Positions 35-14,755 of a stretch of DNA of 64,000 nucleotides are shown here, piece after piece. The stretch covers positions 186,001 to 250,000 of the forward strand of contig JAWLHB010000001.1 in NCBI GenBank assembly GCA_041690595.1, given 5' to 3'. Position numbers and translations under genes: made by a program. The notes under the pieces were generated by a model. That model was given only the letters and a program-made list of their open reading frames with translations. It was not told the origin of the DNA and did no database searches. Positions within the stretch are counted from its first letter, which is position 1. The number at the start of each line of letters is the position of its first letter. This DNA comes from Lentisphaeria bacterium (lineage in GTDB: Bacteria > Verrucomicrobiota > Lentisphaeria > JABSQK01 > JAWLHB01).

Positions 35-1549
35 TCACGAGGCTTCTCCACTTTGTGCATGTCTCTCAAGTGCGCGGATGGCACGGTCCACCTTGTCACG
101 CCGAGCTTGTTGGCGGGCTTCCGCTTCTGCCATAGTCGTCTCGCGCTTCTTGAGCAAACGCAGCGTCTCTTCGGGCGCAGCGCCGCCAAGGTGGGTATGG
201 GTCTTCAGGAATTCCTCGGGATCGAGCTGTCGGCGGACGATTTCGGTCGAGAGTCCCGGCTTTCTGACATCCAGGTATGTCGCTGCCTCATCGAGCATCT
301 CCCCGGTACACTCGAAGCTCTTCAGTGCCTTTTCCCGTGCCTGCCGAATCATGGTGGCAACGATGCTGTGAGCGAGTCTGCCGCCATAGCCCTCTTCCCG
401 GATCAGGTAGCTGGCCAGTTCGGTGGCGCAACTGTAGCCTGAGCGCACGATGCGCTTCATCCGCTCTTTCTGCGGGTGCATGTGCTTCAGGTTCAGTTCG
501 AAACGACGGATTGCCAGCCGGGCCTGCTTGAAGACTTCAGGTACGGTTTGGAACGGCATCCAGGCCGCGGGAAGGACATCGCCATGGAATTCGCCCTTGA
601 GCTGCATGACGCATTTGAAGGTATCGCCGATCACATTCGAGCAGTCCACCCTGACCTGCTCGAAGTGGGACGCACTGTCACACTTCTGTGGCATGAAAGA
701 ACTCATGCCACAGTAGCCCGGCTCCATTCGGAACATGTCAATCTCATCCATGCAGAAGATGTAGAAGTTGGTGCTCCAGCGGCTGATGTGCAGGGCCAGG
801 TTCGAGAGTGCGAACAGCACGGCATAGCTGTGGTCCTGGGTTGCTTCGCAGTCGTAGGTTGCCTCGAGCACACCGTCCATGCCGAGCAGATCCGCCATAA
901 GCTGCCGGTCGACGCTCCAGGTCGTGCCCGAGGTGGAGCCACATCCGCCGGAATTCTGGTTTACCAGGTGATAGCCATGTTCAAGCTGAACCAGCGACCG
1001 GTCAATGCAGTCAAATACCGAAACCAGCATGTGGGCCAAGGTCATGGGCTGCCCATGATTCATGTGGGTATGTGCTACCATCAGCGCGTCGAGATTCTCA
1101 AGGGCCATCCCATGAACGGTGCCCATCAGTGACAACACATCCTCGAACAGCTCCAGGATGGAGTTGCGCATCTTGAGCCTGGACATGGGCTCCTGAAGCG
1201 TACGCCCATAGTTGATCGTGCTGGCCAGATCCATGTTGTTGTCGAGGGTTTTCAGAACACGCTCCTCCCCGGAAGGCCCGGCAGGATTGTGCCAATTTTC
1301 CCAAAGCGCCTTCAGGAGCTTGGCGGCGGTTTCTTCGTCAATCTCTCCGCCTCGGTACAGGCAAATGACCCAGGCGACATCACACTGGGACGCCTCAGGA
1401 ACTCGACCGTCGAACACGGAGCACGTCGTTTCGACTTCGCCCATCTCCCGGTAGTACAACGGCGGCGAGCCCATTGCATGGAAGCGGTGATCGGTGCGAC
1501 GGCTGTACGCGTCGTCAATAAACTGTTCCATTCCAATGAAGTCTTTCAT
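35..1549 (-). CDS. Divergent argininosuccinate lyase-like protein (fumarase/aspartase superfamily lyase), 504 aa
   Basis: SSFMPQKCD resembles the SSxMPxKxN signature; AHTHMNHGQP resembles GYTHxQxAQP; ATELASYL...RLAHSIV resembles the ArgH C-terminus. Start moved to MKDFIG (ATG 1549, RBS GAAGGAG), overlapping the upstream stop as ATGA. Confidence 0.8.
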   Translation of the reverse strand: MKDFIGMEQFIDDAYSRRTDHRFHAMGSPPLYYREMGEVETTCSVFDGRVPEASQCDVAWVICLYRGGEIDEETAAKLLKALWENWHNPAGPSGEERVLKTLDNNMDLASTINYGRTLQEPMSRLKMRNSILELFEDVLSLMGTVHGMALENLDALMVAHTHMNHGQPMTLAHMLVSVFDCIDRSLVQLEHGYHLVNQNSGGCGSTSGTTWSVDRQLMADLLGMDGVLEATYDCEATQDHSYAVLFALSNLALHISRWSTNFYIFCMDEIDMFRMEPGYCGMSSFMPQKCDSASHFEQVRVDCSNVIGDTFKCVMQLKGEFHGDVLPAAWMPFQTVPEVFKQARLAIRRFELNLKHMHPQKERMKRIVRSGYSCATELASYLIREEGYGGRLAHSIVATMIRQAREKALKSFECTGEMLDEAATYLDVRKPGLSTEIVRRQLDPEEFLKTHTHLGGAAPEETLRLLKKRETTMAEAEARQQARRDKVDRAIRALERHAQSGEAS

Positions 1550-1803
1550 CTCTTCTCCTTCGATATCGGTATGTATTGCGGCTCTCGGTGCCATGCCGCC
1601 AGGGCGTCTCGCAGACTGCAGGCCACCGATGACGCGTAGGCGTTGCGGAAGGCCACGCCGCCCGCGGCCAGCCGCTCGACGTTCGTCATCGGCACCGGAC
1701 CGCCGTAAAGCCGCATCACGCGAGGGGTCAGTTGGTCGCAGAGGAAGAGCAGGATGTTCGGTCTCTCGTTCGCCTGCTGGACGTTGTCGGGTTCGGCGGG
1801 CAT
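1546..1803 (-). pseudogene. Internally deleted sulfatase (85 aa): N-terminus up to the catalytic Cys joined in frame to the C-terminal helix
   Basis: RPNILLFLCDQL...NVERLAAGGVAFRNAYASSVACS runs straight into LRDALAAW (compare LRGELLDW near the end of the intact neighbour). CxPxR is cut after CS. RBS GGAG present. Confidence 0.8.
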
Positions 1804-1820
1804 GGCTCTTTTCTCCATAA

Positions 1821-2219
1821 TCACGCGTGTGAAATCTGTTCCGGGTGTTTGCATTCGGTTGCCAGTATGGCGTCGAGGAGCTGCGCCCGCATCGTTGACA
1901 GGTCACTGCCGGGGTTGGTGGCGGCGACCAGATTCGTGCATTCCTCCGGGTCATGCCGAAGGTCGGTCAGTTCCTCCGCGCCATCCTGATAGCGGACGTA
2001 TTTGGTCGTATCGGTGACGGTGCACTTCGAGGACACGTCGGCGGCGCAGTAGCCGTTGCGGTACTCGATCAGGCAATGGTCGCGGACGCGATGCCGAGGA
2101 TCGTCGAGATGTGGTTTCTGTGAGAGACCATCCATGGCGGGCATGGGCGCATAGCAGCCGAGGCTGTCGCGGCGCTGCTGGTCGGTCAGAATGACGAGAA
2201 TATTGGGCAGTTTCGTCAT
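1821..2219 (-). pseudogene. Internally deleted sulfatase (132 aa): about 24 N-terminal residues joined in frame to the C-terminal region
   Basis: PNILVILTDQQRRDSLGCYA runs into PMPAMDGLS (PMETADGKD in the intact neighbour), then KYVRY...EELTDLRHDPEECTNL. No CxPxR or DHG motifs. RBS GGAG present. Confidence 0.85.
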
Positions 2220-2245
2220 GCTAGTTCTCCATCTTGGCCGTGCAC

Positions 2246-3805
2246 TCAGACATAATTGCTCTCGGCGTTGGCGAGAATGGCGTCCGGGGAAAACTTGCCG
2301 TCGCTGTCATGCCAGGTGGTATGGCGCAGGACGCGCCGACCATCGGCTCCGGGGCCAAGATTGCGGCTGACTTGGAGAACCGTGGCCGGGCGACTGGTGC
2401 GCACCAACCAGTCGAGCAGCTCGCCGCGCAGTTCCTCGACGGTGGCCCGATAGGCCGGGTCGAAATACAGATTGCGCATTTCCCAGGGATCGTCTTCCAG
2501 ATCGTACAGCTCGCCGAACCCCTGTGGGTAGTCTTTGGCGAACTTATCCCGGGCGTACCAGACCAGGCGGAACTTGCCCTTGCGCACACTGCGGCTCCAG
2601 GGGAACTCGGTGATACCGAGCCGTTCGGGGTCGCCGGTTCCACCCATGAGCAGGGGCGAAAGATCCTTGCCGTCGGCGGTCTCCATCGGATCCAGCCCCG
2701 CCAGCCGCGCCAGGGTGACGGGGGTGTCCACGGTTTCGACAATCTCCGACACCGTATGCCCCGCCCGGAAGCGACCCGGTGCCCACCACAGAAACGGAAC
2801 ACGGGTGACGGAATCGTGGCAGATGCCCGGCGCCTTTTCGAGAATGCCGTGCTCGCAGGCATATTCGCCATGGTCGGCGCCGTACACCACTAAGGTGTTT
2901 TCGGCCAGGCCAGTTGCGGTCAGAAAGTCGAGCATCTGCCCAACGGCATGGTCCACCTGGCTGACCGCGCCGAAATATCCCCGCAGCTTGCGCAACCTCA
3001 ACGCCTCGAAGGTCTTTGGCTCGAAAAGCGCCCGATTCCCCTCACGCCACTGTTGGGCGGTGCGGATCAGGTTCGGTGCCTGTCGACCACCTTCCAGATC
3101 GCAATCCGCGTTTGGGGGCAAGGTCAGATCGACGCCTTCGTACAGCGACCAGAACGGTTCGCTCGGGCTGGTACACTGGTGCGGCCGTGGCAGGCTGGCG
3201 TGGGCGAAGAAGGGCCGGCCCGCGTCCGCGCACTGCTTCATGAACTCGATCGTCCGCGCCGCGATCCAGCCTTCCTGCGATTCATCGAAGGTGAGCGGTG
3301 AGGGGCGCCCTTCCATGCTCTGCGTGCCCGCGGTACCGAATTCGGTCAGCAACACGTGGTCTTCAAGCTCCAGCTTGCCACGGCTGGCCAGGAAGCTTTC
3401 GTATTCCTTCGACCTGCCGCCAATGCTGCAACCACAGGTTTCGTGGAAGACATCGCTGTCGTCCTCGACCCAGTTCTCGGGACAGTGAATCTTGCCGATG
3501 GCGCTGGTGCGGTAGCCGGCCCGGCGGAAATGCCCAAGAACCGTCGGCAAGCCGTTGGGACGCCCCCCATTGAGTCCGTAGTAGCCGTGATTATGAGCGT
3601 ACTGACCCGACAGGTAGCACATTCGGCTCGGGGTGCAGATCGGGTTCTGGCAGACGGCGTTCGCGAAGCGGACGCCCTCCGCTGCCATGCGGTCGAGATT
3701 CGGTGTTCGCACCTGCGGATGGCCCGCATGGCCCAGCACCTTGGCGTTGTGCTGGTCGGCCAGGATGAAGAGAACATTGGGACGAATGGTAGTATGGCTT
3801 GTCAC
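2246..3805 (-). CDS. Formylglycine-dependent (S1) sulfatase, Cys-type, no signal peptide
   Basis: PNVLFILADQH, CTPSR, GKIH, ADHGE, ELYDLEDDPWEMRNL. GTG start at 3805 after GAGG. Confidence 0.95.
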   Translation of the reverse strand: MTSHTTIRPNVLFILADQHNAKVLGHAGHPQVRTPNLDRMAAEGVRFANAVCQNPICTPSRMCYLSGQYAHNHGYYGLNGGRPNGLPTVLGHFRRAGYRTSAIGKIHCPENWVEDDSDVFHETCGCSIGGRSKEYESFLASRGKLELEDHVLLTEFGTAGTQSMEGRPSPLTFDESQEGWIAARTIEFMKQCADAGRPFFAHASLPRPHQCTSPSEPFWSLYEGVDLTLPPNADCDLEGGRQAPNLIRTAQQWREGNRALFEPKTFEALRLRKLRGYFGAVSQVDHAVGQMLDFLTATGLAENTLVVYGADHGEYACEHGILEKAPGICHDSVTRVPFLWWAPGRFRAGHTVSEIVETVDTPVTLARLAGLDPMETADGKDLSPLLMGGTGDPERLGITEFPWSRSVRKGKFRLVWYARDKFAKDYPQGFGELYDLEDDPWEMRNLYFDPAYRATVEELRGELLDWLVRTSRPATVLQVSRNLGPGADGRRVLRHTTWHDSDGKFSPDAILANAESNYV

Positions 3806-3837
3806 GAAAAACCTCACTTTTCAGGAGTTGATTGTAG

Positions 3838-4007
3838 CTATTTCGGCGTGACTACCAGCCATCCGTTCTCGAAAGTGCCGACGCCGGGCGCTTGGGCACC
3901 AGGTCGGTCTGGACATCGATGGTTGCGGCTACCGAACCCGCCGGCATGGCCAAGAAGGTGAAGAATAGCAAGGATAGGGGATATGGTATTGGCTATTCCT
4001 TCTTCAT
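3838..4007 (-). pseudogene. Probable remnant of a secreted-protein gene
   Basis: ATG at 4007 reads MKKE*PIPYPLSLLFFTFLAMPAGSVAA-TIDVQTDL (signal-peptide-like, early TAG). A second frame reads GVGTFENGWLVVTPK* and ends at 3838. Confidence 0.35.
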
Positions 4008-4067
4008 TTTGAGGTGCGTCTCTTCCCCTTCGTCATGCACGGACGCCGCATCTTCCAGCGGGTTGGG

Positions 4068-7000
4068 TCAGTTCGCCGGGAAACGGTACTCGAAGCGCCC
4101 GCTCTTGCCAGCCTGGGCCTGCCGGCGGACATTGATGCCGTCGCGGTCAAATCTAACGGTGTCGACGGCGTTGGGCCAACGGATCTCGGCCCGGCCATCG
4201 CCCCGAACAACCGTCGGCATCTCCATGCCCGGCAGGTAGGGATAGACCAGGGTTGGGAAATTGGCTTCGACTTGGCGCTTGATGAGTTTAGCACGGGGAT
4301 GGGCAATGAACTGCTGCCCGTAGAAGCGGGTGTTGAAGCTGAATATTTCGGCTGTGAACTCGACTGGGTCGGCGCACAAGGCGGCGACCAGCAGTTCGGG
4401 GGCCGGGCGTTCCGGCTTTTCGATGCCCCAGCCATCGCCGGTGACAACGGCTTGTTCATGCGAACGTATCAGCGTTCCGGCGGGCAGCTCGCCCCATCCG
4501 TTGAAGACCGTCGAATCGATGCGAAAACGGTCGGAGCTGGCGCTGGAAATGACCCCTTCCAGCCGTTCGTCGCCAAAGCTCGTCCCTCGTTCCGGGTCGA
4601 CCGGCACCAGCGCGATCTTGGCGAACCGAGCGTCGCCCGCGCCAACGACCAGGATGTGTGCGCCTGCTTCGAGAAGAATGGCGCTTAACACCGGTTCGCC
4701 GCTCATTCGCTGCCGTACGGCCTGCAGATCTGTGCTCCCGCCCTCGCCGAAGACGGCCTGTGCCCATTGCCGCCAGCCGCCGCGGCGAATCGCCAGCCGC
4801 GCGCGGTAGTTCGTTTCGCCCACGCGGAACGGAAAGACGCCCCCTCCGGAAGGTTGCGCATAGACCCAGATCTGGTAGTGGCCGCTCTCCGGGATGTCGA
4901 ACTCGAAGGCGGCTTCGCCCTTCGCGCCGCCGGTCGGCGCCAGCCAGGCACCGTCGTACTCCTTGCGGTAGGTGAAGGAGCCATTGCCGTTGTCGCTCGC
5001 CATCGCGTCGGCGGCGCCGATGTACAGTTGCTCGTAGAGGGTTTCCTGGTTGCCCACCCGGACATCGTCATAGACCAGATAGTAGGGCGGAACCCCGGCC
5101 GTGTCGTCGCCGACCATGAGGACGGCGCGGCGCCCGCGCTCGAGCTTGATTCCCGGCGCCGGAATGGCGTAGGGAGCTGTCGCATGGGTGCCGACCACGC
5201 GGGTGGCAAAGGCTGGCACCATGCCCACCGAAGAAGCGGCAGCCAGACCGTCCGCCTGGATTGGTGCGATCCGATCTTTCGGGGTGTTGGCTTGCCGGTA
5301 GTTGTCGAACCGTCCCTGCCCGTCGATCAGCAGTTGCGAATGCCGATCCGCTTCGCCCACCGCCTGGCCTGGGTCGACCAGGAGCTGCTCGCCAAAGGCG
5401 CGCAGGGCAATGGCGCCGCATTCGAGATGGGCGTGGCCGCCGGCGGTCAACGTGAAGGTCAGAAGCGCCGAGTCGTCGTCGTAGCCGGTGCGGAAGACCT
5501 GGTAGTTCTGGGCATCGAAATAGGCGGCCTTCGGCAAATCGGTGAAATCCTGCGGCTGGTTGTCCGAGGGGGCGAACCAGAGCAGCGACAGCACGTCTGC
5601 ATCTGGGCGTTCCGCTCGCTCGATGCTGTTCCACAGCTTCCAGGCGGTGGCATTATCGGGGTAAAGACGCAGCAGCCCCAGGGGAAAGTTCAGCGGCCCG
5701 CCGTCGCTGTCGCCGATGGCCGGCAGGTAGCCGCCGGCGTTGACGATGGCCAGCCAGTTGGCGAAATGTTGCAGATTGTTGTTCCGGGTTTCCGGATGCA
5801 GGTCGTTCATCTTGAGGCTGACCAGAAACGGCATCACGAGTCTGATCGGAGTGTTGAAGTACGAAGTGCCTTCAGAGCAGTCGCCGTTATCGCCGATCCA
5901 GGTGTCGAGGTTGATGCTGATCAGCCGCGCCGCCGCCGGCAGCCAGGAGGCGTCACTGCCGGGCTCGCCTGCCAGCGCTAGCGCGATGGGCCCGAAGGAG
6001 CCCGCTGAATGGGTGGCGAAGTTTCCCGTGATGTCGTTCGAGGCGCCGAAGTAGCGCTCGCCAATTTGCCGGTAGCTGTCCGCCGCGCCGGTCTGGAGAA
6101 CCCCGGTGACCCGTTGCAGGTCGTCGGGCGCGAAGAGATCGTGCAGCCAGTCGTAGGCGCAGGCCACGGGATATTCGGCGACCATTCGCTGATGCCACTG
6201 GGCGTACTCGGCAGCGATGCGCACCAGCCAGTCAGCACCGCGCTGGCCGTAGCGTTCGTCGCCGGTAACCTGGTAGGCGAAGGCGAGATGGAAGACCGGC
6301 TCGATCCAGGGCGACCGGTCGTAAAGCCCTTTCGATGGGTTCTTGCGGATCGCGTGAATGGACGCTTCGACCTGTTTGGAATCCTTGGATTCCGCGCCGA
6401 GCAGTCGTTCGCAACGGGCTATAAAGGTTTGCCAGACCGGCGCGTGAGGCTCGGCGGCCAGCCGCTCGCGGATGCCGGGCAAGTCCTCGGCCCGGAACAG
6501 CATACGCGGGCGCGGCAGCTCGAGCCCCTTGGTGTTGATCGCCACCCCGTTTTCAGCCGGCACGGCAAGTGGCTCTGCCGAGAGTTGCCGCGGCACCCAG
6601 GCGGGAAACAGCGCTGTACCGCCGCCGCCACCCGTGACGTTGCGCATCTCCCCGCTGGCCATGTCCAGCACCCAGATATCGGTGGTGCCTGCCCGGTTCG
6701 AGACGAAGGCCAGGCGTTTGCCGTCGGCGTCCCAGGCGGGTTGCCCGTCCCAGACGTCGCCATCGGTCACCTGCTCGAGGTTGCCGCCATCGGGATCGAC
6801 CACAAAGAGCGAGGAGGTGCCGTCTGCCTTCTGCAACCCAAAGGCGATGCGATTGCCGGCGCCCCAGATAGGTTCGCGGATATCGCCGTCCAGCGACAGG
6901 ATGCGGGTCTGCCCCATGCCGTCCCTGGCGTTCATGGTGAATAGCTCGAACTTGCCATTGCGGTCGCTGATGAAGACGATGCGTTCGCCGTCCGGCGACC

Positions 7001-7493
7001 AGTCCGGCGAGCGCTCGTTGGAGAGCGTTTTCCAGGTGAGATTGCGCAGATTGCCGCCGTCGTGGTCCATGACGAAGATTTCGGCAAGGTTGCGGATGTC
7101 AGTGGTTAGGGCGATGCGCCGCCCGTCCGGCGACCAGCGTGGCTCCTGCCATTCCCGCCGGTAAGGCGTCAATTGGACGAGCTCGCTGCCATCCCAGTTC
7201 ATCGCTGAAATCGTCCACCCGCGTCGCAGCACGATTTTGCCGCCGACCGGCGAGACGTCTGGCGAGCGCTGCCACTTGGGGAAAGGCACAGGATCGGGAT
7301 TGTCCCGATTGTCGGAGTCGAAAATGACGGCCCGCCCACCACCGTCCGCCTGAATGTATTCCAGTACCATGTTGTTTCGCCCGCGGGCATCCTTGCCCTC
7401 GCGGATGTAGACGATACGATCCGTGTTCGGATCCGCAGACGCGATACTTGACCAGACCGTTGCCGCCAGCACTAAACCCATCATTCCTTTCAT
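4068..7493 (-). CDS. Secreted TolB-like (PD40) propeller + DUF4962/heparinase II/III-like polysaccharide lyase + CBM-like insert, 1141 aa
   Basis: Signal peptide MKGMMGLVLAATVWSSIASA (RBS AAGGAG); repeats PRWSPDG, PDWSPDG, PAWDADG; RPRMLFRAEDL, LAFAYQVTGDERY, EGTSY, PAIGDSD, GGHAHLE, LLVDPG, HSQLLIDG. Confidence 0.8.
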   Translation of the reverse strand: MKGMMGLVLAATVWSSIASADPNTDRIVYIREGKDARGRNNMVLEYIQADGGGRAVIFDSDNRDNPDPVPFPKWQRSPDVSPVGGKIVLRRGWTISAMNWDGSELVQLTPYRREWQEPRWSPDGRRIALTTDIRNLAEIFVMDHDGGNLRNLTWKTLSNERSPDWSPDGERIVFISDRNGKFELFTMNARDGMGQTRILSLDGDIREPIWGAGNRIAFGLQKADGTSSLFVVDPDGGNLEQVTDGDVWDGQPAWDADGKRLAFVSNRAGTTDIWVLDMASGEMRNVTGGGGGTALFPAWVPRQLSAEPLAVPAENGVAINTKGLELPRPRMLFRAEDLPGIRERLAAEPHAPVWQTFIARCERLLGAESKDSKQVEASIHAIRKNPSKGLYDRSPWIEPVFHLAFAYQVTGDERYGQRGADWLVRIAAEYAQWHQRMVAEYPVACAYDWLHDLFAPDDLQRVTGVLQTGAADSYRQIGERYFGASNDITGNFATHSAGSFGPIALALAGEPGSDASWLPAAARLISINLDTWIGDNGDCSEGTSYFNTPIRLVMPFLVSLKMNDLHPETRNNNLQHFANWLAIVNAGGYLPAIGDSDGGPLNFPLGLLRLYPDNATAWKLWNSIERAERPDADVLSLLWFAPSDNQPQDFTDLPKAAYFDAQNYQVFRTGYDDDSALLTFTLTAGGHAHLECGAIALRAFGEQLLVDPGQAVGEADRHSQLLIDGQGRFDNYRQANTPKDRIAPIQADGLAAASSVGMVPAFATRVVGTHATAPYAIPAPGIKLERGRRAVLMVGDDTAGVPPYYLVYDDVRVGNQETLYEQLYIGAADAMASDNGNGSFTYRKEYDGAWLAPTGGAKGEAAFEFDIPESGHYQIWVYAQPSGGGVFPFRVGETNYRARLAIRRGGWRQWAQAVFGEGGSTDLQAVRQRMSGEPVLSAILLEAGAHILVVGAGDARFAKIALVPVDPERGTSFGDERLEGVISSASSDRFRIDSTVFNGWGELPAGTLIRSHEQAVVTGDGWGIEKPERPAPELLVAALCADPVEFTAEIFSFNTRFYGQQFIAHPRAKLIKRQVEANFPTLVYPYLPGMEMPTVVRGDGRAEIRWPNAVDTVRFDRDGINVRRQAQAGKSGRFEYRFPAN

Positions 7494-7569
7494 CGAAGAC
7501 TCCTTTCGTTTTTCTGTGTTGACCATCTGAAATTTCATCTGACGGCGGCGGAACTGCAATCCACCCATG

Positions 7570-7591
7570 TCGCCCCACATCGCCCCACATC
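7570..7591. repeat. 10-bp tandem duplication (CGCCCCACAT x2) in the spacer between the two lyase-like genes
   Basis: tcgccccacatcgccccacatc read directly. Confidence 0.8.
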
Positions 7592-7610
7592 TGAGGGGGC
7601 TCGCCGCGGT

Positions 7611-9191
7611 TCATTTTCGGCCGTCAGCCGCCTCGCCCCCGGCTGTGTTCGGTGGTGGCGGATGGCGTTCGAGCAGGTGCCGGTACCACTCGCTGACCTG
7701 CGTCGCAAAGCGTTGGACAGTCAGGACGAAGACCTCGGTGTCGCCGTCCACTTCAAGATAGTCGCCGTCGCGCCGGAAGCTGGTTTCGACGCCGTTGACG
7801 GTCACGGTTTGAGCACGCGGGGCGAAGGCCCGCAGGCGGAAGGCCCAGAGGAACTGGAGCCGGGCATCCGGGCTGGTCATGGCTTTGACGTCGAGGGTGT
7901 CGCCGGAACAGGCCACGGTGGCATGGAACGGGCGGTGGCGCACGGTGCGGTCGCGCTCTTCATCGTTGAAATGGCCGAGCGTCAACTGGTCCCAAAGCTG
8001 GATCAGCGGTGCGCCGCCGAAGGTCAGGAAGGTGCCGTTGACCATCAGGTAGGTCAGCTCCGGCGGCGGCTGGAAGTTCTGTACCCGTCGCTGGTCGGCG
8101 GGATTCTCCCCCTCTTCGAGCGGGGTGCGGACGATGAAGAAGTTGCCGTTCGAGCCCTGGCCGCCGAGTTGCTCCTCGCGGGTGCCGATATAGTCCACCG
8201 CACCGGGCCAGGCGAGCTGATGGCGGAAACCGTAGCGTGTCGGGTGATAGCTGATCACCGGCATGGCATCCCCCTCGGCGAATGGATAGAGCATGGCGAG
8301 AAAACGGGGGTTGACCGAGCGGTTCTTGGCGCGCAGCCGCGGATGCCGGAAGCGGGCGTGCGACATCGCGTCGAACACATCCTGCGTCAGGTTGACTTCG
8401 AGGAACTCGACCGCCAGTTTCGGCGCGGGCGCGTCGTTGACCACCTGGTGCCAGCCGGGGTGTTCCGTGCCCTCGGGGGGCGTGATCGGCACGCTGACGG
8501 TCTGCGGGGTGTTGATCAATTCCGGTACTTCAAGATCGATCTTCTCGTCCGCGGTGAGCATCACCCACTTCAGCCGGGCGATTCCTGGTAGCGGGCCCTG
8601 GCCTTTGAGCGCCAGACCGAAGCGAGCCGGGGCGACGATCGCCGGCAGCATCAGGTTGCTCACCATCATGCCCGGCGCCCCGGGCCGGTCGTAAAGGTGT
8701 CGATAGCCGTCCTCCGCCCGTTCGGCGAGATAGGCGCGCAGACCCGCCCGCGCCTCGTCCGACAGCGCCTCGAAGCCGATGTCGTACACCAGCGGCCACT
8801 CGAAGCGCGGCGTCCGCACCCGGGGATTGGTGGGATGCTGGTCGTCCAAGTGGTTTTGGGCCACCATCTCTTCGACCGCCATCTGCAGGCGCTCGGCATA
8901 TCGCTCGTCCTCCGTCACCCGCCAGACGAAAGCCAGCGCCACCAGCGGATCCACGCGGAACGGCGCGATATCGTCGGCAGTCAGCGCCTGATCCGCTTGG
9001 CGCCGGAGAATCCCAAAAGCGATCTTTGGCGTGCCGTCGCGCACCGTCTTGCGAATTGCCGGTAATTCCTCTGGGGAGAACAGCAGGAACGGGCGGGCCG
9101 GGTTGGCCGCGCCGATCGAAACCACCATGCACACGCCCAGAAGCACCAGCCGGTAGAGCCGCAAAGGCTTTCTCGTTAACGGCACAGCCAT
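7611..9191 (-). CDS. Secreted heparinase II/III-like paralog missing its central catalytic region (526 aa; in-frame deletion, possibly non-functional)
   Basis: Signal peptide; RPFLLFSPEEL, LAFVWRVTEDERY and FGLALKGQG match the paralog's helical domain, then it jumps to GIARLKWV...PAPKL...HPRL...LYPF, matching the paralog's C-terminus. Start MAVPL at 9191 after GGAGAGG. Confidence 0.7.
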   Translation of the reverse strand: MAVPLTRKPLRLYRLVLLGVCMVVSIGAANPARPFLLFSPEELPAIRKTVRDGTPKIAFGILRRQADQALTADDIAPFRVDPLVALAFVWRVTEDERYAERLQMAVEEMVAQNHLDDQHPTNPRVRTPRFEWPLVYDIGFEALSDEARAGLRAYLAERAEDGYRHLYDRPGAPGMMVSNLMLPAIVAPARFGLALKGQGPLPGIARLKWVMLTADEKIDLEVPELINTPQTVSVPITPPEGTEHPGWHQVVNDAPAPKLAVEFLEVNLTQDVFDAMSHARFRHPRLRAKNRSVNPRFLAMLYPFAEGDAMPVISYHPTRYGFRHQLAWPGAVDYIGTREEQLGGQGSNGNFFIVRTPLEEGENPADQRRVQNFQPPPELTYLMVNGTFLTFGGAPLIQLWDQLTLGHFNDEERDRTVRHRPFHATVACSGDTLDVKAMTSPDARLQFLWAFRLRAFAPRAQTVTVNGVETSFRRDGDYLEVDGDTEVFVLTVQRFATQVSEWYRHLLERHPPPPNTAGGEAADGRK

Positions 9192-9349
9192 TGTCTCGCC
9201 TCTCCAGGTCATGTCAGTGGGGAACGGTGCCTTGAACGCGCTCGGATACATGAAGTGATGGACTTCTCCGTGATCAGCGCAATAGAACAGGTTAACTCGG
9301 CGGAAGATTGCCATGGGTCGGGCATTGGGGCTGTTGCGCTAATCGAGGC

Positions 9350-10060
9350 TCAGTCGAAGGCGTTGAAGAACTGCGGATCATGGAGGTGTACGCGGTTGGT
9401 ACCTGGCGCGTAGGGCGCATGTTTGAACTCGACGTGATTGTCGAACAGCAGGATGTTCGTGCCGCCTAGATGCCGCCAGCCTCCGCCCCACTGAAGATGG
9501 TATCCCATGGACACATCGGAGTAATAGTGGCCATGCAGAGGCGCCGCCTGTCCCCACCCGTCATGCGTCCAATACTTCGTGCTGGGCGCCTCGACTTCGA
9601 TCAAACGACCGGCGGCGGTGGGAGCGAGGGCAATCGGGACGACCTCGCCGCTGCTGTCGGTGCTGTACACGGCCACCGAGTTCATCACGTAGTTGGTGCC
9701 ATGGAACCAACGGGTGAACCCGAAATTATCGAACGTGTCTGGCGTCTTCTGCGTCGACGGGCATTCGAACAGGGCGGTTCCTCCGTATCCCCCGTCATAC
9801 AAGGCCCAACTCCACTTGTGATACCACGGCTGATTCAATTGGAAGGCGAGCACCATGTACCCATCCGATTCATCGATGTATTGGATGTTGGCCAGCCCGA
9901 TCTGTTTCAGATTGTTAACGCAGGAAATCTGTTTCGCCTTCTCTCGAGCCTTGCTCAACGCTGGCAAAAGCATCGACGCCAGAATGGCGATTATCGCCAC
10001 GACGACGAGCAGCTCGATCAGGGTAAACGAATTCCGCTTGAATTTGCGGTTCATATTCAT
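9350..10060 (-). CDS. Prepilin-type N-terminal cleavage/methylation protein (DUF1559-like, H-X9-DG-type C-terminal motif), 236 aa
   Basis: [74 protein letters not shown] before ATG 10060. Confidence 0.92.
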
Positions 10061-10085: not shown

Positions 10086-12839
10086 CTATGATTGGTCGAG
10101 TGGGGTCGCTGGAAAGACTTCAGTGATGGTCGTTTTCTCCTCAGCTTTGGCTGGCTTTTCGAGGATGATGACAAACTCGCGCAAGGCGTGGGGCGGCAGA
10201 CGGCCGGCAACGGTCTGAGCGCTGGTCTGCAAATGGGCAATCGACATCTCGCTGGTGACTTCGAGTGCGGTCACCGGCCAGGGCAAGGTGAGTTCGAAGT
10301 TCTCCGCCTTGTCGCCAAGGTTGACCAGGCGGAGAACGACGTGGCTCTCGCGTCGCTCCATGGCGGCGAGACAGATGCCGTCGCCAGTCAACTGGAAGTC
10401 ACGGATCACCGGGGCGTTGGTGCCTTGGAGGGGAAAAAGCGACTCCAAGAGCTGTTCGTGGCAATGCTTGCGGTCGAATTGCGCGTCGGCACAGAAAAGC
10501 AGGCTCCAGGAGCAGGCGATGTCGCCTTTTGGGCAGATGAAGTCGAAGCGCTCATGCGAGTCGTCGTAGTCGACGCCCCCGGCTCCGCGGCCGATCTTCT
10601 CCCAATACGAGCCCTTCGGCATCCGGTAGTTCTGGGTCATCGGATGAATGATCGTGCTGCCAAGGCTCAGGCCAAGGGTCTCGACCTGCTCGTGCCGTGG
10701 CCTCCGGCGGAAGAAATGGCCATGGCCATCGGTGAGCATGGCCAAAGAGCCGGCAGGCGATTCGGCAATGCCGGTGAAGATGCCGAGGAACGGCGCCATG
10801 CCTGCATACAGATCGCGGAACCGCCCATTATTCCATGAACGATCGGAGTCCTGTGCCGTGGTGAACCCGTATGGCTTGTCGCTGCTGTACGCAGTGCGCT
10901 GAGGAATGGTCTGGTGCTCGACGGTAAAGGCGGGTACATAGGGGCGCTCGCAATAGCTGCCCAGGTAGGAGCCAACCTCCGGCGGCAGCGGCGGCGTCTG
11001 CATGCCTTCGTAGACTTGGTCGTCGTAATGTCGGAGCAAGACGCTGTCGACCCGCTCGTTGTTCTGATCGAGGGAGACAGTCAGCGTGGCCGTACACGTG
11101 CTGAAGCGGCCCCGGAACTCGATCGTCGCCCGGGCCCCTTGCTCCCTAACGTGGACGTCCTCCACGACAAAGGGGTCAAGCGCCCATTCGAGCACTTTAC
11201 AGCCGTGCCAGTACTGCAGCTCGGCAAACCGCCCATTGAGCCGAAGGACCGCGCCGCGCAGCTTGAACCCTTCGTCGGCGATCGCGTGCAGAACGATCCG
11301 GTTTTTCCCCTTGCGCAACTGTAGGTAGGCGGTCTGCGAATAGCCGTGCTCCTGGTTACCCGACGGCAGCCCTCCGCCCCAATGTGCGTTGGTAACTCGC
11401 ACCCAATCGTCGCCATTAGCCGCGACGGCCACCGCGAGACCGCGCACGACATCGAGGAAGAGCGGATAGGCGCCATCGGCAGGCACGTCGACCTCGGTCT
11501 CGAGCCGGATGCTGCCGCTGAACGGCTGTTCCCAGATGTTCATGGCACGCAACAGGAACTCGCCTTGCGCCGGGCGGTTGATCCAATGCCGCACCTGATT
11601 GGCCTGGCCCCGATAGAGAACGGCGCCCGCACGGTCAAACACAGCCAGTACCTCGCCCATCGGGCTTAGCTCCACTCGGATACGGTTGTTCTCCAACATG
11701 GATGGCGTGGCGCGGACGACATCATCTGCCACAGTCGCTACCGACACGGTTGAAGCTGGCGCAACGTCGGTGCAGGCGAGGTAGGTGTCGCCGGAGCGAA
11801 TGACGCCAGAATGTCGGTGCGGCAGGGGATTGAAGGCGTGAGACGGGGTACAACTCGCGGGAGCGAGTGACAGACGTTGGCGGACCTCTGTTTCCAGTTC
11901 GCGGGCCAGGGGCAGGTAGTGGGCATCGACATCGGCGAGCAGCCACTGCAGGTGGCAATCCTGGAGGACGAGGCTGCGCTTCCAGTAGTCGTCGAGATCT
12001 GTTGCATCGCCGCGCAACACTTGGTTGAACGCCAATACGCCCAGTGCCAGGTCGGCACGGTGCAAGGCGGCCTGCTGCTGCATGACCAGTGGCGCGCCGC
12101 CGTACCAGCCTTTGGTGCGGACGGCCTGGGAGGAGACCACGGGCAATGTCGGGTCGGTCAGTAGTGCCTCGACCTCGGCCGCCGTGGCGCAGGCCAGCTC
12201 GCCGAATCGCTCGCGCAATTCGTTCATGTGCACGGGCAGGTGCGGTGCCTCGGTACCGGTGTAGAGCAGGTCCGTGCCGTTAGCCGGCTGTCCCAGCATG
12301 GGCAGGCGGCTGCCGTCAGGAGACTCGATAATGGCGAGGTTCTTGCCACAGATATGGGTGAAGCCAGCCAAGATCCCGATCTGCGGCACCATCGTGGCGT
12401 TCCAGTCAAGCTGAAAGGGACCGTCATGGACGAAAAAGCCCTCTGGTGCCATGGCGAAGTGATCAGCTGCAAGCTCATGGCTGAGGCGCAGTGCCTTGAG
12501 TACGGCTTCGCCGACCATCCCCTCGACCACCGCCCCCGAATAGGGGTAGGCGGCGTAGACCAGTTGCCCACGCCGGACGGCAGCCCTGAACCGTTCGAGC
12601 TGCTCTGGTCGCATCGGCCCATCCGCCTTGCCCGGTTCCGGACTGGTGGTGGTAATACGGCGAACCGCCCCAGCCTGGCCGATGTCCAGCAACCAACCCG
12701 GCTGGGTGAAAAAGAAGCGTTCGCCGCGCTCTTGGCGGGCTTCGAGGATGTCCATGTAGAGGTCAAGTTGGCGCCGCCGGTTGGCCTGCCCGACCCCCGG
12801 CGTGATCCAGCCCCAATGAATGTCGATCAGCTTCATCAT
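10086..12839 (-). CDS. Divergent GH38 (alpha-mannosidase)-like glycoside hydrolase, 917 aa
   Basis: [51 protein letters not shown] match GH38 landmarks also seen in 19772-22825. The N-terminal HxD motif is not canonical. Confidence 0.6.
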
Positions 12840-14755
12840 GCCGTCACCTCCAGAAAGACCGGGCTGGCGTAGATGAGCCCGCCATCACGCTGGCGGGCCC
12901 GGACGTAGAAATAGGTGCCCGAACAGGCCGGGCCCAACGGAATCTCGACGTCCACATCCCATTCGGCGAACGATTGCTGCCAGACGACCTCGCCAGCCGA
13001 AACGACTTCGACGGTTTGCAGGCTGTCCTGCGCCGACAATTCCAACCGAGCAGCGAGTGCAGCGCCGGCAGCCACCCTCAGTTCCCCTCCCATCAACACC
13101 CCGTTGATCTCGAAGCGAACAATGGCCCGCGTGTTCCAGATAGCCCAGGTGTGACGGGCGTACAGCGCGTCGAAGACGGCTTGGCGCTTGATGCCCTCCG
13201 TCCAGATGCCGGTCAGGATAACCGAGTGCATCGGCCCGTTGCCACCGAGGAGGTTTGCTTCGGCCGGTTCCCAGGCGCGGCCGGGCCAGGCCATGTGATT
13301 GTCAGTGCCACCGGTGAATCCCACCTTGTGCCCGCGCGCGAGCGCATCTTGGACCGAGGCTCGATTGTGCTGATGCCAGCCCATCCATTGATCGGTGTAG
13401 TCGTTGCGTTCCTGGTTGCCGCGCACCTGCATGATCTCGACCATCCGCAGGGCCGGTTCCGGCTCTGCCCACGGATAGGGATGCCAGACCGGCACATGGC
13501 CATCAGGCGTCCGGCTCTCGGAGACGGCATTGGTATGGTGGGGAATGCACAGGTAGTTCGATTCCTGGCTGTAGTGCCCGCGTGCGTCATCATGCACAGA
13601 TGCTCGCGCTGCCATCGCTTCGGCATAGTTGCCGTGGCAGCACATGGGGTGGTTGGCATCGGTGAAGTAATAGTTCTCGTGCCCCCGCTTGGTGCTGCGC
13701 TCCCACCCATAGAAGGTCGCAAAGTAACCGGGCTGCTCGAAAGCGTCGAGCGCGTTGACGCTCTGCTTCCAGGCTTGCACGTCGGGGCTGTGATCACTCG
13801 GCGCGGCGAAATCCAGATTCATGGCATCCCGCGCATTGCCCAAGGCCGTCTCGATGCAACCTTGGCCATCCCCCGAGAAATCGGTGTGCCAGTGGAACTC
13901 GCCGAATGCTGGCAGCAAGCGTTGGGGGCCATGCTCCCACACTGGATTGCCCGTCACCACAAGCCGGTCGCCATCCCGAGTGGCGTTCGCGATGTTTTCA
14001 TCCGCCGCCAGCTGAGCCATGGGAATGGCGACACGCAAGCGCGAGACTCCCTGCGGCGAATCAAGCTCCATGGTCAGCGGGCCTTCCAGGCCTCGTGCCT
14101 GTGAGGTGCCATTCCACATCAGTTCACAGAAAACGGGTGCCTTGAAACGTGAGGGATTGCCAAATCGGTCCAACGGAGACACGACGGCTCTTACGGTGCC
14201 TTCTGGCCCAGCCGTCGGGCGGCACCACACACCGAGCCGTTCCACTGCTGCGCCGGTCACGGACACGACGGTTGACGACCCGACTTCTCGCGCGAAAGCA
14301 TACTCTTTGGTCTCGCCCCCGCTGCGCAACTCCTTGATCCAAAGTGACAGCAGCAGCGGCACGGTGTCGATGTAAGGAGCAATCAGCGTCAGACGAATTG
14401 TCAGCGCCTCGCCCTTCACCGCCCCCCTCGGCAGGCCGGCGGTGAAGACGACGCGGTCCGGATTCTCATGCATGTCCCGCAGGTGCGGATAGGTGCGCCA
14501 ACGCCAGGTGACGTCGGCGCGATCCATCTCCGCATGCACATATTTCCAGAAGTAGTAGCAGCGCATGCGATCCACGCGGAGCTGAAGTTCGGTGCCGCTC
14601 GTATAGGTCTTTTCAGGTAACCATTCGAACTCGACCGTCTGATGGGCGTGGAGTGTGCAAGGCAGAGGCTCGTCGCCGGTTCTGTGCAAAGCCATGATCA
14701 ATCTCTTGTTTGTAAACTCAAGCTGAACATTCGTGCCGTCGGCCCGTTTGCGCAT
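12836..14755 (-). CDS. PHP-fold metallohydrolase (DUF3604 / CehA-McbA-like)
   Basis: GEFHWHTDFSGDG, PSDH, GWE, GHEN, IPHH, GFTGGTDNH, YFYVRARQ...ASPVF. Confidence 0.8.
   Translation of the reverse strand: MRKRADGTNVQLEFTNKRLIMALHRTGDEPLPCTLHAHQTVEFEWLPEKTYTSGTELQLRVDRMRCYYFWKYVHAEMDRADVTWRWRTYPHLRDMHENPDRVVFTAGLPRGAVKGEALTIRLTLIAPYIDTVPLLLSLWIKELRSGGETKEYAFAREVGSSTVVSVTGAAVERLGVWCRPTAGPEGTVRAVVSPLDRFGNPSRFKAPVFCELMWNGTSQARGLEGPLTMELDSPQGVSRLRVAIPMAQLAADENIANATRDGDRLVVTGNPVWEHGPQRLLPAFGEFHWHTDFSGDGQGCIETALGNARDAMNLDFAAPSDHSPDVQAWKQSVNALDAFEQPGYFATFYGWERSTKRGHENYYFTDANHPMCCHGNYAEAMAARASVHDDARGHYSQESNYLCIPHHTNAVSESRTPDGHVPVWHPYPWAEPEPALRMVEIMQVRGNQERNDYTDQWMGWHQHNRASVQDALARGHKVGFTGGTDNHMAWPGRAWEPAEANLLGGNGPMHSVILTGIWTEGIKRQAVFDALYARHTWAIWNTRAIVRFEINGVLMGGELRVAAGAALAARLELSAQDSLQTVEVVSAGEVVWQQSFAEWDVDVEIPLGPACSGTYFYVRARQRDGGLIYASPVFLEVTA

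What the first reader, a model, noticed from the sequence alone, without database searches (positions are those of the whole stretch)
1546..9191. 'Hollowed-out' operon: three genes have lost their catalytic middles in frame but keep RBS, start, both termini and stop
Seen: two mini-sulfatases (85 and 132 aa) and a 526-aa lyase paralog each join a recognisable N-terminus directly to a recognisable C-terminus. By eye against intact paralogs in the same operon, about 400, 345 and 440 residues are missing. All three joins are in frame, and a fourth remnant (3838-4007) is out of frame. Three random deletions would all be in frame about (1/3)^3, roughly 4%, of the time. Inference: this could be selection to drop enzymes without polarity on downstream genes, recombination between tandem paralogs, programmed or reversible excision of catalytic cassettes, or non-catalytic mini-proteins. 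Assembly collapse is the main alternative.
Basis: partly seen in the sequence, partly recalled or inferred. Interest (0 to 1): 0.8.

Follow-up and report, generated by a model that had tools for sequence, protein, structure and literature searches.

The report
Three in-frame hollowed genes, one operon
Two sulfatase genes and one polysaccharide-lyase-like gene in a single sugar-degradation gene cluster have each lost their middle in frame; this is most likely ordinary gene decay, and the intact reading frames need no special explanation.

Summary
The main observation holds. On the minus strand:
- An 85-aa ORF (1546-1803) joins a sulfatase N-terminus, up to the catalytic Cys, to the last ~22 residues. 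About 422 aa are missing.
- A 132-aa ORF (1821-2219) joins 23 N-terminal residues to the last 108 of a ~490-aa sulfatase. About 360 aa are missing.
- A 526-aa protein (7611-9191) lacks ~430 central residues that its 930-954-aa relatives have, including a syntenic homologue.

The "fourth remnant" (3838-4007) matches nothing.

No other short forms exist in the databases searched. The missing middles are not elsewhere in the assembly. The retained ends show no decay.

The 4% in-frame argument fails. In this GC3-rich genome, short direct repeats 600-1500 nt apart within genes are in phase 53-78% of the time. Three in-frame microhomology deletions then have p of about 0.15-0.47. A relative's copy of the 85-aa gene seems to carry a different, out-of-frame deletion.

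Best reading: recent intragenic deletions leaving dead relics. Selection against polarity is possible but not needed. No reads could be laid across the junctions, so an assembly artefact is not excluded. The scan has seen deletion-made in-frame relics in other genomes.

The parts
1546..1803 (-). mini-sulfatase 1 (85 aa). It keeps the N-terminal 62 residues up to the catalytic Cys, one residue, then the last ~22 residues of a ~500-aa S1 sulfatase. The junction is near 1618-1620. Its stop TGA (1546-1548) overlaps the ATG (1547-1549) of the next gene.
   Evidence: The gene caller's own product is the 85-aa form.
1821..2219 (-). mini-sulfatase 2 (132 aa). It joins 23 N-terminal residues to the C-terminal 108 residues (the small C-terminal subdomain) of a ~490-aa S1 sulfatase. 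The junction is near 2150. About 360 residues are missing, including the Cys-x-Pro-x-Arg site.
7611..9191 (-). Hollowed heparinase II/III-like protein (526 aa, with a signal-peptide-like start). It joins the first ~170 residues of the helical domain to the last ~300 residues. The junction LKGQ|GPLPGIARLKW lies near 8595. About 430 residues are missing.
2246..3817 (-). Intact 523-aa S1 sulfatase, the in-cluster yardstick.
   Evidence: PF00884 151.9 bits and PF16347 49.1 bits; 57-78% identical relatives.
4068..7580 (-). Intact 1170-aa protein: a PD40 beta-propeller fused to a heparinase II/III-like region. It is a distant paralogue of the hollowed 526-aa gene.
35..1549 (-). Intact argininosuccinate-lyase-like gene (504 aa). 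Its ribosome-binding site (AAGGAG) and ATG lie inside the tail and stop of mini-sulfatase 1.
3818..4067 (.). 250-nt gap that holds the claimed 'fourth remnant' (3838-4007). No recognisable relic was found.

Best explanation
Three separate intragenic deletions of about 1.27, 1.09 and 1.29 kb have removed the cores of three genes in a same-strand gene cluster for sulfated-polysaccharide breakdown. The genes are two S1 sulfatases and one heparinase II/III-like protein.

Inferred:
- The deletions arose by slippage or end-joining between short direct repeats.
- They are recent.
- The products are catalytically dead relics. One sulfatase stub keeps the Cys but not the Pro and Arg of the active-site motif. 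The other lacks the motif altogether. The lyase-like protein lacks half of its helical domain and the whole heparinase II/III C-type region.

All three are in frame mainly because strong codon-position composition (GC3 0.74-0.88) puts most short repeats in the same codon phase. Because they are in frame, ribosomes still read to the native stops. Downstream genes therefore keep their coupling (ATGA overlap at 1546-1549), which would make such deletions cheap to carry.

Shown: the architecture, the breakpoints, the lack of short-form families and the phase bias.
Inferred: the deletion mechanism, recency and loss of function.
For: 1. Full-length relatives define clean joins in all three genes.

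2. Both retained ends of each gene match the same subfamily, so each is a deletion within a single gene.

3. No short-form family was found.
- The 526-aa protein finds only itself among 8000 scored candidates.
- Its relatives are 930-954 aa. The one 589-aa hit sits on a 2761-nt contig and covers only the C-terminal 62% of the query, so I take it for a contig-end fragment.
- Of the short hits to mini-sulfatase 2, the 7 I aligned are continuous C-terminal fragments, not N-plus-C joins.
- All three proteins are singletons seen only in this assembly.

4. Only 2 of 78 sulfatase-like frames are stubs of this kind, and they are adjacent.

5. The retained parts are not decayed.
- mini-sulfatase 2 keeps 21 of 21 columns that are at least 90% conserved in 10 homologues, and 28 of 29 at 80% or more.
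- The 526-aa protein keeps 105 of 167 columns that are identical in three full-length homologues. An intact, more distant homologue keeps 71 of 143.
- dN/dS of the mini-sulfatase 1 N-terminus against its paralogue is 0.26 over 49 codons.
- The GC3 frame signal is unbroken across the 526-aa gene.

6. Phase bias. Maximal exact direct repeats of 6-12 nt, 600-1500 nt apart, in 2324 genes are in phase 53-78% of the time. The nucleotide-shuffled control gives 33%. The codon-shuffled control gives 53-73%. Three of three in frame then has p of about 0.15-0.47.

7. Precedent. A 3n bias of deletions in bacterial pseudogenes, attributed to microhomology and not to selection, is reported in PMC6054270. 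I read the abstract and passages found by term search.

8. P0152 is a 158-aa protein from another assembly that shares the leader of mini-sulfatase 1 (76% identity). It runs in frame past that gene's junction to residue 133. It then follows the +2 frame of codons ~353-374 of the paralogue (score 53; 0 of 500 shuffles reach it). This looks like an independent out-of-frame deletion of the same gene in a relative.

9. The model of mini-sulfatase 2 folds only its residues ~40-125 with confidence. It matches the last ~100 residues of S1 sulfatases (best E 1.6e-4).
Against: - No read or independent contig was seen to cross any of the three junctions. None of the 32 listed pieces from four low-depth sediment runs bridges 1620, 2150 or 8595, and 667 further pieces were not shown.
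- The three proteins occur in no other assembly.
- Well-preserved ends, three deletions of similar size (1.1-1.3 kb), and no frameshift or stop anywhere in the three genes are also what an assembly skip would give.
- No ancestral DNA is available, so microhomology at the breakpoints is not shown.
- The phase-bias null applies only if the deletions used microhomology. Without it, p is 1/27.
- P0152 comes from one 1737-nt contig whose DNA I could not read, so its frame change could be a contig error.
Confidence: 0.58

Rival explanations
1. Assembly artefact. The draft genome (99 contigs) skips about 1.1-1.3 kb inside three real full-length genes. One route would be a jump across short exact repeats in the assembly graph, which would also tend to be in phase.
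For: - All three proteins are singletons known only from this assembly.
- No listed contig from the four runs crosses a junction.
- The retained ends are undecayed.
- The deletion sizes are similar.
- Pieces of 1.1-1.3 kb would fall below usual binning cut-offs (my own knowledge), so their absence from the assembly does not argue against a skip.
- Repeats of 13 nt or more are in phase 87% of the time, so in-frame joins fit this reading too.
Against: - The joins link non-homologous positions, so collapse of paralogues cannot produce them.
- Three skips within 8 kb of the largest contig would be needed, while 72 other sulfatase frames are whole.
- Each skip would need a long exact repeat, and the repeat finder shows none around the junctions.
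- A different assembly shows the same gene lineage also broken.
Confidence: 0.2
2. Relics kept by selection. Either deletions were filtered to be in frame so that translation continues to the native stop, preserving coupling and avoiding Rho polarity on downstream genes (translated spacers). Or the leftovers work as non-catalytic proteins, such as the free sulfatase C-terminal subdomain or a truncated lyase acting as a binding protein.
For: - Ribosome-binding sites, starts and stops are kept.
- There is an ATGA overlap of the mini-sulfatase 1 stop with the next start, and gaps of 17 and 26 nt between the neighbouring genes.
- No terminator-like site lies between the genes.
- The conserved columns are fully kept and dN/dS is 0.26.
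- The C-terminal subdomain is predicted to fold on its own.
- Analogy: ComEB is dispensable but must be translated for ComEC synthesis (bioRxiv 10.1101/2020.12.30.424838; I saw only the search listing and the start of the abstract).
Against: - The neutral in-phase expectation already explains three of three in frame.
- No conserved short forms exist in any database searched.
- The retained C-terminal parts (108 and ~320 codons) are far longer than coupling needs.
- The first 29 residues of mini-sulfatase 2 are predicted to be disordered.
- The apparent relative allele is out of frame.
- Good conservation is equally explained by recency.
Confidence: 0.15
3. Programmed or reversible excision of catalytic cassettes by a site-specific system.
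For: Only the pattern itself: three clean joins of similar size in one cluster.
Against: - No k-mer is shared by the three junction windows. The observed count is 0 for every setting tried, as in random triples.
- There are no direct or inverted repeats at the joins.
- The missing middles are not elsewhere in the genome.
- No joined or alternative forms were reported when contigs were laid on the window (table 5: none).
Confidence: 0.02
4. Unequal recombination between tandem paralogues produced chimeric short genes.
For: - The cluster holds several sulfatase paralogues.
- A 117-nt patch is 87% identical between mini-sulfatase 1 and the paralogue 4.4 kb away.
Against: - Homologous recombination joins equivalent positions and gives full-length chimeras. 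Here an N-terminal site is joined to a C-terminal site.
- Both ends of each gene belong to one subfamily.
Confidence: 0.03

Closest known systems
Bacterial pseudogenes made by 3n or in-frame deletions at microhomologies (Danneels et al. 2018, Genome Biol Evol, PMC6054270)
   Same: Deletions in non-functional genes are biased to multiples of three without selection for frame. That paper also reports genome-wide microhomology spacing biased to 3n. I read the abstract and passages. The same bias is measured here.
   Different: In the passages I read, that work deals with small deletions (figures show indels of 15 nt or less). Here the deletions are 1.1-1.3 kb and the bias was measured at 600-1500-nt spacing. 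Here there are three in one cluster, and none of the three genes carries any other lesion.
Translated but dispensable upstream ORFs that serve translational coupling, such as comEB-comEC of Bacillus subtilis (bioRxiv 10.1101/2020.12.30.424838)
   Same: An upstream reading frame whose product is not needed may still need to be translated for the next gene. mini-sulfatase 1 ends in ATGA on the next gene's start and carries its ribosome-binding site.
   Different: Nothing here shows that translation of the relics matters. I saw only that paper's listing and the start of its abstract.
S1 formylglycine-dependent sulfatases (Pfam PF00884 with the PF16347-type C-terminal subdomain), such as BT1596 (PDB 5g2t)
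   Same: The N-terminal strand with the Asp-Gln metal site and the C-terminal beta-sheet-plus-helix subdomain are recognisable.
   Different: The ~300-residue catalytic core is absent from both mini-genes.
Heparinase II/III-like and oligo-alginate lyase fold (PF07940; PDB 3a0o, 8khv)
   Same: Paralogues and homologues give weak hits to this family. The low-confidence model of the 526-aa protein gives weak partial matches to such lyases.
   Different: The 526-aa protein itself hits no Pfam family even at E 10. It lacks the region where its homologues carry the PF07940-like stretch.
Deletion-made in-frame fusion relics noted earlier by this scan in other genomes (e1-478627, e1-1910564, e1-073001)
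   Same: A deletion leaves an open frame that joins the start of one coding region to the end of another. Those cases were judged to be ordinary decay.
   Different: Those are fusions between genes in E. coli prophages or CRISPR loci. Here there are three deletions within single genes, side by side.

Membership tests
S1 sulfatase (PF00884), as active enzyme | Whole-domain match above Pfam's gathering score (25 bits) | tested here: not met
   mini-sulfatase 1 scores 19.6 bits on profile positions 1-50 only. mini-sulfatase 2 has no PF00884 hit. The intact neighbour scores 151.9 bits.
S1 sulfatase (PF00884), as active enzyme | Cys/Ser-x-Pro-x-Arg formylglycine motif (motif recalled from my own knowledge) | tested here: not met
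   mini-sulfatase 1 reads C-S-L-R-D where its relatives read C-G-P-S-R. In mini-sulfatase 2 the motif region is deleted.
S1 sulfatase (PF00884), as active enzyme | N-terminal metal-binding Asp-Gln in the first strand | tested here: met
   LCDQ in mini-sulfatase 1 and LTDQQ in mini-sulfatase 2 align with their relatives.
S1 sulfatase C-terminal subdomain (PF16347-like) | Four-stranded sheet plus C-terminal helix matching solved sulfatases | tested here: met
   For mini-sulfatase 2, Pfam gives 20.5 bits, below the cut-off of 29.3. The model (pLDDT 78-93 for residues ~40-125) matches the last ~100 residues of S1 sulfatases: 11 chains at E of 0.001 or less, best 1.6e-4.
Heparinase II/III-like lyase (PF07940 and helical toroid) | PF07940 region present | tested here: not met
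   No Pfam hit for the 526-aa protein at E up to 10. Its syntenic homologue has the best stretch at residues 424-481 (22.3 bits, below the cut-off of 24), inside the part that is missing here.
Heparinase II/III-like lyase (PF07940 and helical toroid) | Complete N-terminal helical domain | tested here: inconclusive
   Only the first ~170 aligned residues are kept. The model is poor (mean pLDDT 53). Foldseek gives no match at E of 0.001 or less.
Deletion-derived gene relic (pseudogene by internal deletion) | Longer homologues cover the gap, and both flanks are collinear with one homologue | tested here: met
Deletion-derived gene relic (pseudogene by internal deletion) | The junction exists in the organism's DNA (reads across it) | not testable with these tools
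   Only four low-share runs kept as contigs were found. No listed piece crosses a junction. The source reads were not available.
Translated spacer or coupling ORF | Stop-start overlap, or a ribosome-binding site for the next gene inside the ORF | tested here: met
   ATGA at 1546-1549, with AAGGAG 8-13 nt upstream.
Translated spacer or coupling ORF | Downstream expression depends on translation of the ORF | not testable with these tools
   This needs expression data or reporter constructs.

The most novel reading that the evidence does not exclude
The hollowed frames are not mere wreckage but selected 'translated spacers'. In a long, tightly packed degradation operon, enzymes that are no longer wanted are removed only by deletions that keep ribosomes running to the native stop. 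Downstream genes then keep translational coupling and escape Rho polarity. The surviving sulfatase C-terminal subdomain or truncated lyase may also have taken on a non-catalytic role.
Probability: 0.13. Interest if true: 0.6.

Novelty: new member of a known kind. Interest (0 to 1): 0.3.

Why it matters
If the joins are real, this is a clean natural example of three large in-frame deletions side by side. It shows that in GC3-rich genomes in-frame deletions are the expected outcome and not a sign of selection, because short repeats are mostly in codon phase (53-78% here). That matters for annotation: such relics are called as ordinary short genes and inflate counts of sulfatases. It also matters for any argument that takes 1/3 as the neutral chance of keeping the frame. 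If the joins are artefacts, it is a warning about draft genomes assembled from metagenomes.

Tried and rejected
1. Reads. The look-up of sequencing runs gave only four sediment runs from one study, with 6-7% of the sampled words. When laid, they give 151-262-nt contigs at depth 2-6. Some are 92-99% alike, for example 1716-1975, 2185-2418, 8307-8559 and 8637-8861. None of the 32 listed pieces crosses 1620, 2150 or 8595, and 667 pieces were not shown. This says nothing either way.

2. Orthologous operons.
- 30 relatives (order and class level) searched with the DNA gave only the intact sulfatase, at 70-72% identity, in other contexts.
- 48 metagenome loci found with the intact sulfatase share none of its neighbours.
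- Synteny was found only for the lyase side, in G172.

3. Genome-wide scan for hollow genes by all-against-all BLASTP of 5409 crude gene calls.
- The loose rule flagged 61 queries, mostly giant modular proteins.
- The terminus-anchored rule flagged 10, the 526-aa gene among them.
- It missed mini-sulfatase 2, whose N-terminal match is too short. mini-sulfatase 1 was not in the gene set.
- The scan is too insensitive and too unspecific to give a base rate.

4. The tail of mini-sulfatase 1 against the C-termini of 72 own-genome sulfatases. The top alignments hit the LRxxLxxW helix, but 37 of 300 shuffles reach the best score. This was settled only with P0153.

5. Structure of the 526-aa protein from a 6-sequence alignment. 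Mean pLDDT is 53, and Foldseek gives no match at E of 0.001 or less.

6. Shared junction motif: none. Repeats in 1400-9400: nothing at the joins.

7. Promoter and terminator scan: fewer sites than in the shuffles.

8. Literature. Three full-text searches found no report of clustered in-frame hollowed genes in a polysaccharide-utilisation cluster. That is no proof that none exists.

Full report
WHAT IS THERE

All genes of the region lie on the minus strand with short gaps. From upstream to downstream they are:
- a LacI-type regulator (14786-15880);
- a DUF3604 protein (12836-14755);
- a 917-aa protein of no family (10086-12839);
- a prepilin-type/DUF1559 protein (ends at 9350);
- the 526-aa protein (7611-9191);
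- a 1170-aa PD40-propeller protein with a heparinase-like region (4068-7580);
- an intact 523-aa sulfatase (2246-3817);
- the 132-aa ORF (1821-2219);
- the 85-aa ORF (1546-1803);
- an argininosuccinate-lyase-like gene (35-1549; E 1.5e-31 to solved argininosuccinate lyases).

Further sulfatase and other genes follow on the same strand beyond the window. The gaps are 26 nt (sulfatase to 132-aa ORF) and 17 nt (132-aa to 85-aa ORF). The stop of the 85-aa ORF overlaps the next start as ATGA. The pattern scan found no terminator-like site between the genes. That the genes form one operon is inferred.

THE 132-AA ORF

A full HMMER scan of 1.84 billion representative proteins gave 145 hits at E of 0.001 or less. 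The best full-length ones, P0003 (491 aa) and P0004 (489 aa), match in two stretches. Residues 25-132 align to residues 383-491 at 49-52% identity and run to the last residue. The alignment shows MTKLPNILVILTDQQRRDSLGCY on their N-termini, then a gap of about 360 columns, then APMPAMDGLSQ... on their C-terminal part.

Many hits are short. The 7 short ones I aligned are unbroken C-terminal pieces, not N-plus-C joins.

The predicted structure (mean pLDDT 70.6) has residues 1-29 below 50 and residues ~40-125 at 78-93. Foldseek matches those residues to the last ~100 residues of S1 carbohydrate sulfatases. There are 11 chains at E of 0.001 or less; the best is BT1596 at 1.6e-4.

THE 85-AA ORF

This is the gene caller's own product. 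Forty-nine residues, from RPNILL to the catalytic Cys, match the 994-aa sulfatase paralogue 4.4 kb downstream. A 117-nt stretch is 87% identical.

A search for longer relatives found P0153 (509 aa, 84% identical over the N-terminus) and P0152 (158 aa, 76%). After the Cys the relatives read GPSR..., while the ORF reads SLRDALAAWHREPQYIPISKEKR.

Against 72 own-genome sulfatase C-termini this tail was only suggestive: 37 of 300 shuffles reach the best score. Against P0153, LRDALAAWHRE aligns to LRAALAAWRQE at residues 477-487 of 509, and only 3 of 2000 shuffles reach that score. So the ORF is the first 62 residues joined in frame to the last ~22, with about 422 missing.

THE 526-AA PROTEIN

A word-based search found only the protein itself, and Pfam finds nothing even at E 10. 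Within the genome it matches an 815-aa paralogue on contig 14 at both ends (E 1.6e-15 and 1.3e-10), with about 270 residues fewer between them. It also matches the 1170-aa neighbour.

A six-frame search of 301 genomes of the class found matches in 14. All are in open frames of 615-1180 aa. The best is in G172, in two stretches of one 998-aa open frame. That locus is syntenic. It has a LacI regulator (54% identity), a PD40/heparinase-like protein (32%), the 917-aa protein (70%), a prepilin-like protein, and then the homologue.

BLASTP gives residues 32-207 on 78-256 (E 6e-25) and 206-507 on 686-984 (E 9e-46), so 429 residues are absent. The homologue's family members are 934 and 930 aa. There is also one 589-aa protein on a 2761-nt contig that covers only the C-terminal 62% of the query; I take it for a contig-end fragment.

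The alignment puts the join at LKGQ|GPLPGIARLKW, which is window position ~8595. The homologue's sub-threshold PF07940 stretch (residues 424-481; 22.3 bits against a cut-off of 24) lies in the missing part. The lyase label therefore rests on weak evidence: 3a0o at E 1.3e-4 for the 1170-aa paralogue and weak Foldseek rows for a poor model.

THE FOURTH REMNANT

Nothing significant was found by tblastx against the genome, by the genome's own sulfatase profile run without filters, or by short-query BLASTP.

IS THE PATTERN SPECIAL?

A profile built from 68 own-genome sulfatases hits 78 frames. Of these, 72 cover more than 75% of the profile and 6 are partial. Only the 132-aa ORF has profile positions 26-49 plus 350-440. 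The 85-aa ORF has 19-80 only. These two lie side by side. About ten heparinase-like paralogues exist, and only this one is short. So the clustering is real.

The missing middles are not elsewhere in the assembly. The best matches to full-length relatives of the 132-aa ORF are ~30% identical whole paralogues. The best match to the homologue's middle is the 815-aa paralogue at 29%.

IS 'ALL IN FRAME' SPECIAL?

I counted maximal exact direct repeats 600-1500 nt apart inside 2324 genes of 1.2-4 kb. The share with spacing divisible by three rises from 53% (6 nt) to 78% (11-12 nt) and 87% (13 nt or more). Nucleotide-shuffled genes give 33-36%. Codon-shuffled genes reproduce the bias at 53-76%. The cause is therefore codon-position composition; GC3 is 0.74-0.88 in these genes.

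If the deletions used such repeats, three of three in frame has a probability of 0.15 to 0.47, not 0.04. A 3n bias of deletions in bacterial pseudogenes, attributed to microhomology-based end joining and not to selection, is in print for small deletions (PMC6054270; I read the abstract and passages).

P0152 adds a likely counter-example. It shares the 85-aa ORF's leader and runs in frame to residue 133, well past that ORF's junction. Its last 25 residues then follow the +2 frame of codons ~353-374 of the paralogue (score 53 against 23-36 in the other frames; 0 of 500 shuffles reach it). I could not read its DNA.

AGE AND CONSTRAINT

The retained parts look healthy.
- The 132-aa ORF keeps 21 of 21 columns that are at least 90% conserved among 10 homologues and 28 of 29 at 80% or more. 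The homologues themselves score 71-100% by leave-one-out. Its mean identity to the others is the highest in the set.
- The 526-aa protein keeps 105 of 167 columns that are identical in three full-length homologues. An intact, more distant homologue keeps 71 of 143.
- dN/dS for the 85-aa ORF's N-terminus against its paralogue is 0.26 (14.4 synonymous and 12.6 non-synonymous differences over 49 codons).

This fits recent deletion, continued selection, or an assembly skip alike.

MECHANISM AND RIVALS

Recombination between paralogues is unlikely, because non-equivalent positions are joined and both ends of each gene come from one subfamily. Programmed excision has no support: the junctions share no motif and there are no repeats at the joins.

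Selection against polarity fits the tight gene spacing and the ATGA overlap, and has an analogue in comEB-comEC (I saw the listing and the start of the abstract only). It is not needed once the phase bias is counted.

The assembly-artefact reading could not be tested. The only runs found hold 6-7% of the sampled words. Their small contigs lie on both sides of the junctions, but none listed crosses one. All three proteins are known only from this assembly.

I put real, recent, neutral in-frame deletions at 0.58, an artefact at 0.20, and selected spacers or mini-proteins at 0.15. The remainder goes to the other readings.

VERDICT

The statistical argument and the fourth remnant do not hold. This is gene decay of a known kind in an unusual, tidy cluster. 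The scan has met deletion-made in-frame relics in other genomes.

Noticed in passing
database protein P0152 (no window coordinates); compare window 1546-1803: In another assembly, a 158-aa protein shares the 85-aa ORF's leader and continues in frame to residue 133. It then follows the +2 frame of codons ~353-374 of the sulfatase paralogue. This looks like an independent out-of-frame internal deletion of about 220 codons, or a contig error.
   Followed up: partly
window 1648-1764 and G000:C1:183148-183264 (outside the window): A 117-nt patch is 87% identical between the 85-aa ORF and the 994-aa sulfatase paralogue 4.4 kb away. It is flanked on both sides by unrelated sequence. It may be a gene-conversion tract or a recent partial duplication.
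   Followed up: partly
whole genome G000 (2324 genes): Short exact direct repeats within genes are strongly in codon phase: 53% at 6 nt, rising to 87% at 13 nt or more. Codon shuffling reproduces the bias. This is a general neutral source of in-frame deletions in GC3-rich genomes.
   Followed up: yes
window 10086-12839 (-) and L075:5858-8599: The 917-aa protein has no Pfam family, yet it is 70% identical to its counterpart in a genome of another family of the class. Its neighbours there are only 32-54% identical. It is an unusually conserved unknown in this cluster.
   Followed up: no
window 35-1549 (-): An argininosuccinate-lyase-like gene (E 1.5e-31 to solved argininosuccinate lyases) sits inside a sulfatase and lyase cluster and is translationally coupled to the sulfatase relic. 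This is an odd context for that family.
   Followed up: no
window 4068-7580 (-) and G000:C14:93224-98951: There is a second copy of the pair on contig 14, in the opposite order: a PD40/heparinase-like protein (56% identical, 1122 aa) next to a full-length 815-aa paralogue of the hollowed gene.
   Followed up: partly
window 9962-10028: Depth in the four sediment runs jumps to 12-16 (bin means), with many loose ends on both sides. Many organisms share this conserved prepilin-type N-terminal motif, so the depth is not a sign of this genome.
   Followed up: no
window 3950-4010 (-): The 250-nt gap before the intact sulfatase reads MKKE, then a stop, then a hydrophobic signal-peptide-like run (LSLLFFTFLAMPAGSVAA) in one frame. 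It has no detectable homologue.
   Followed up: partly
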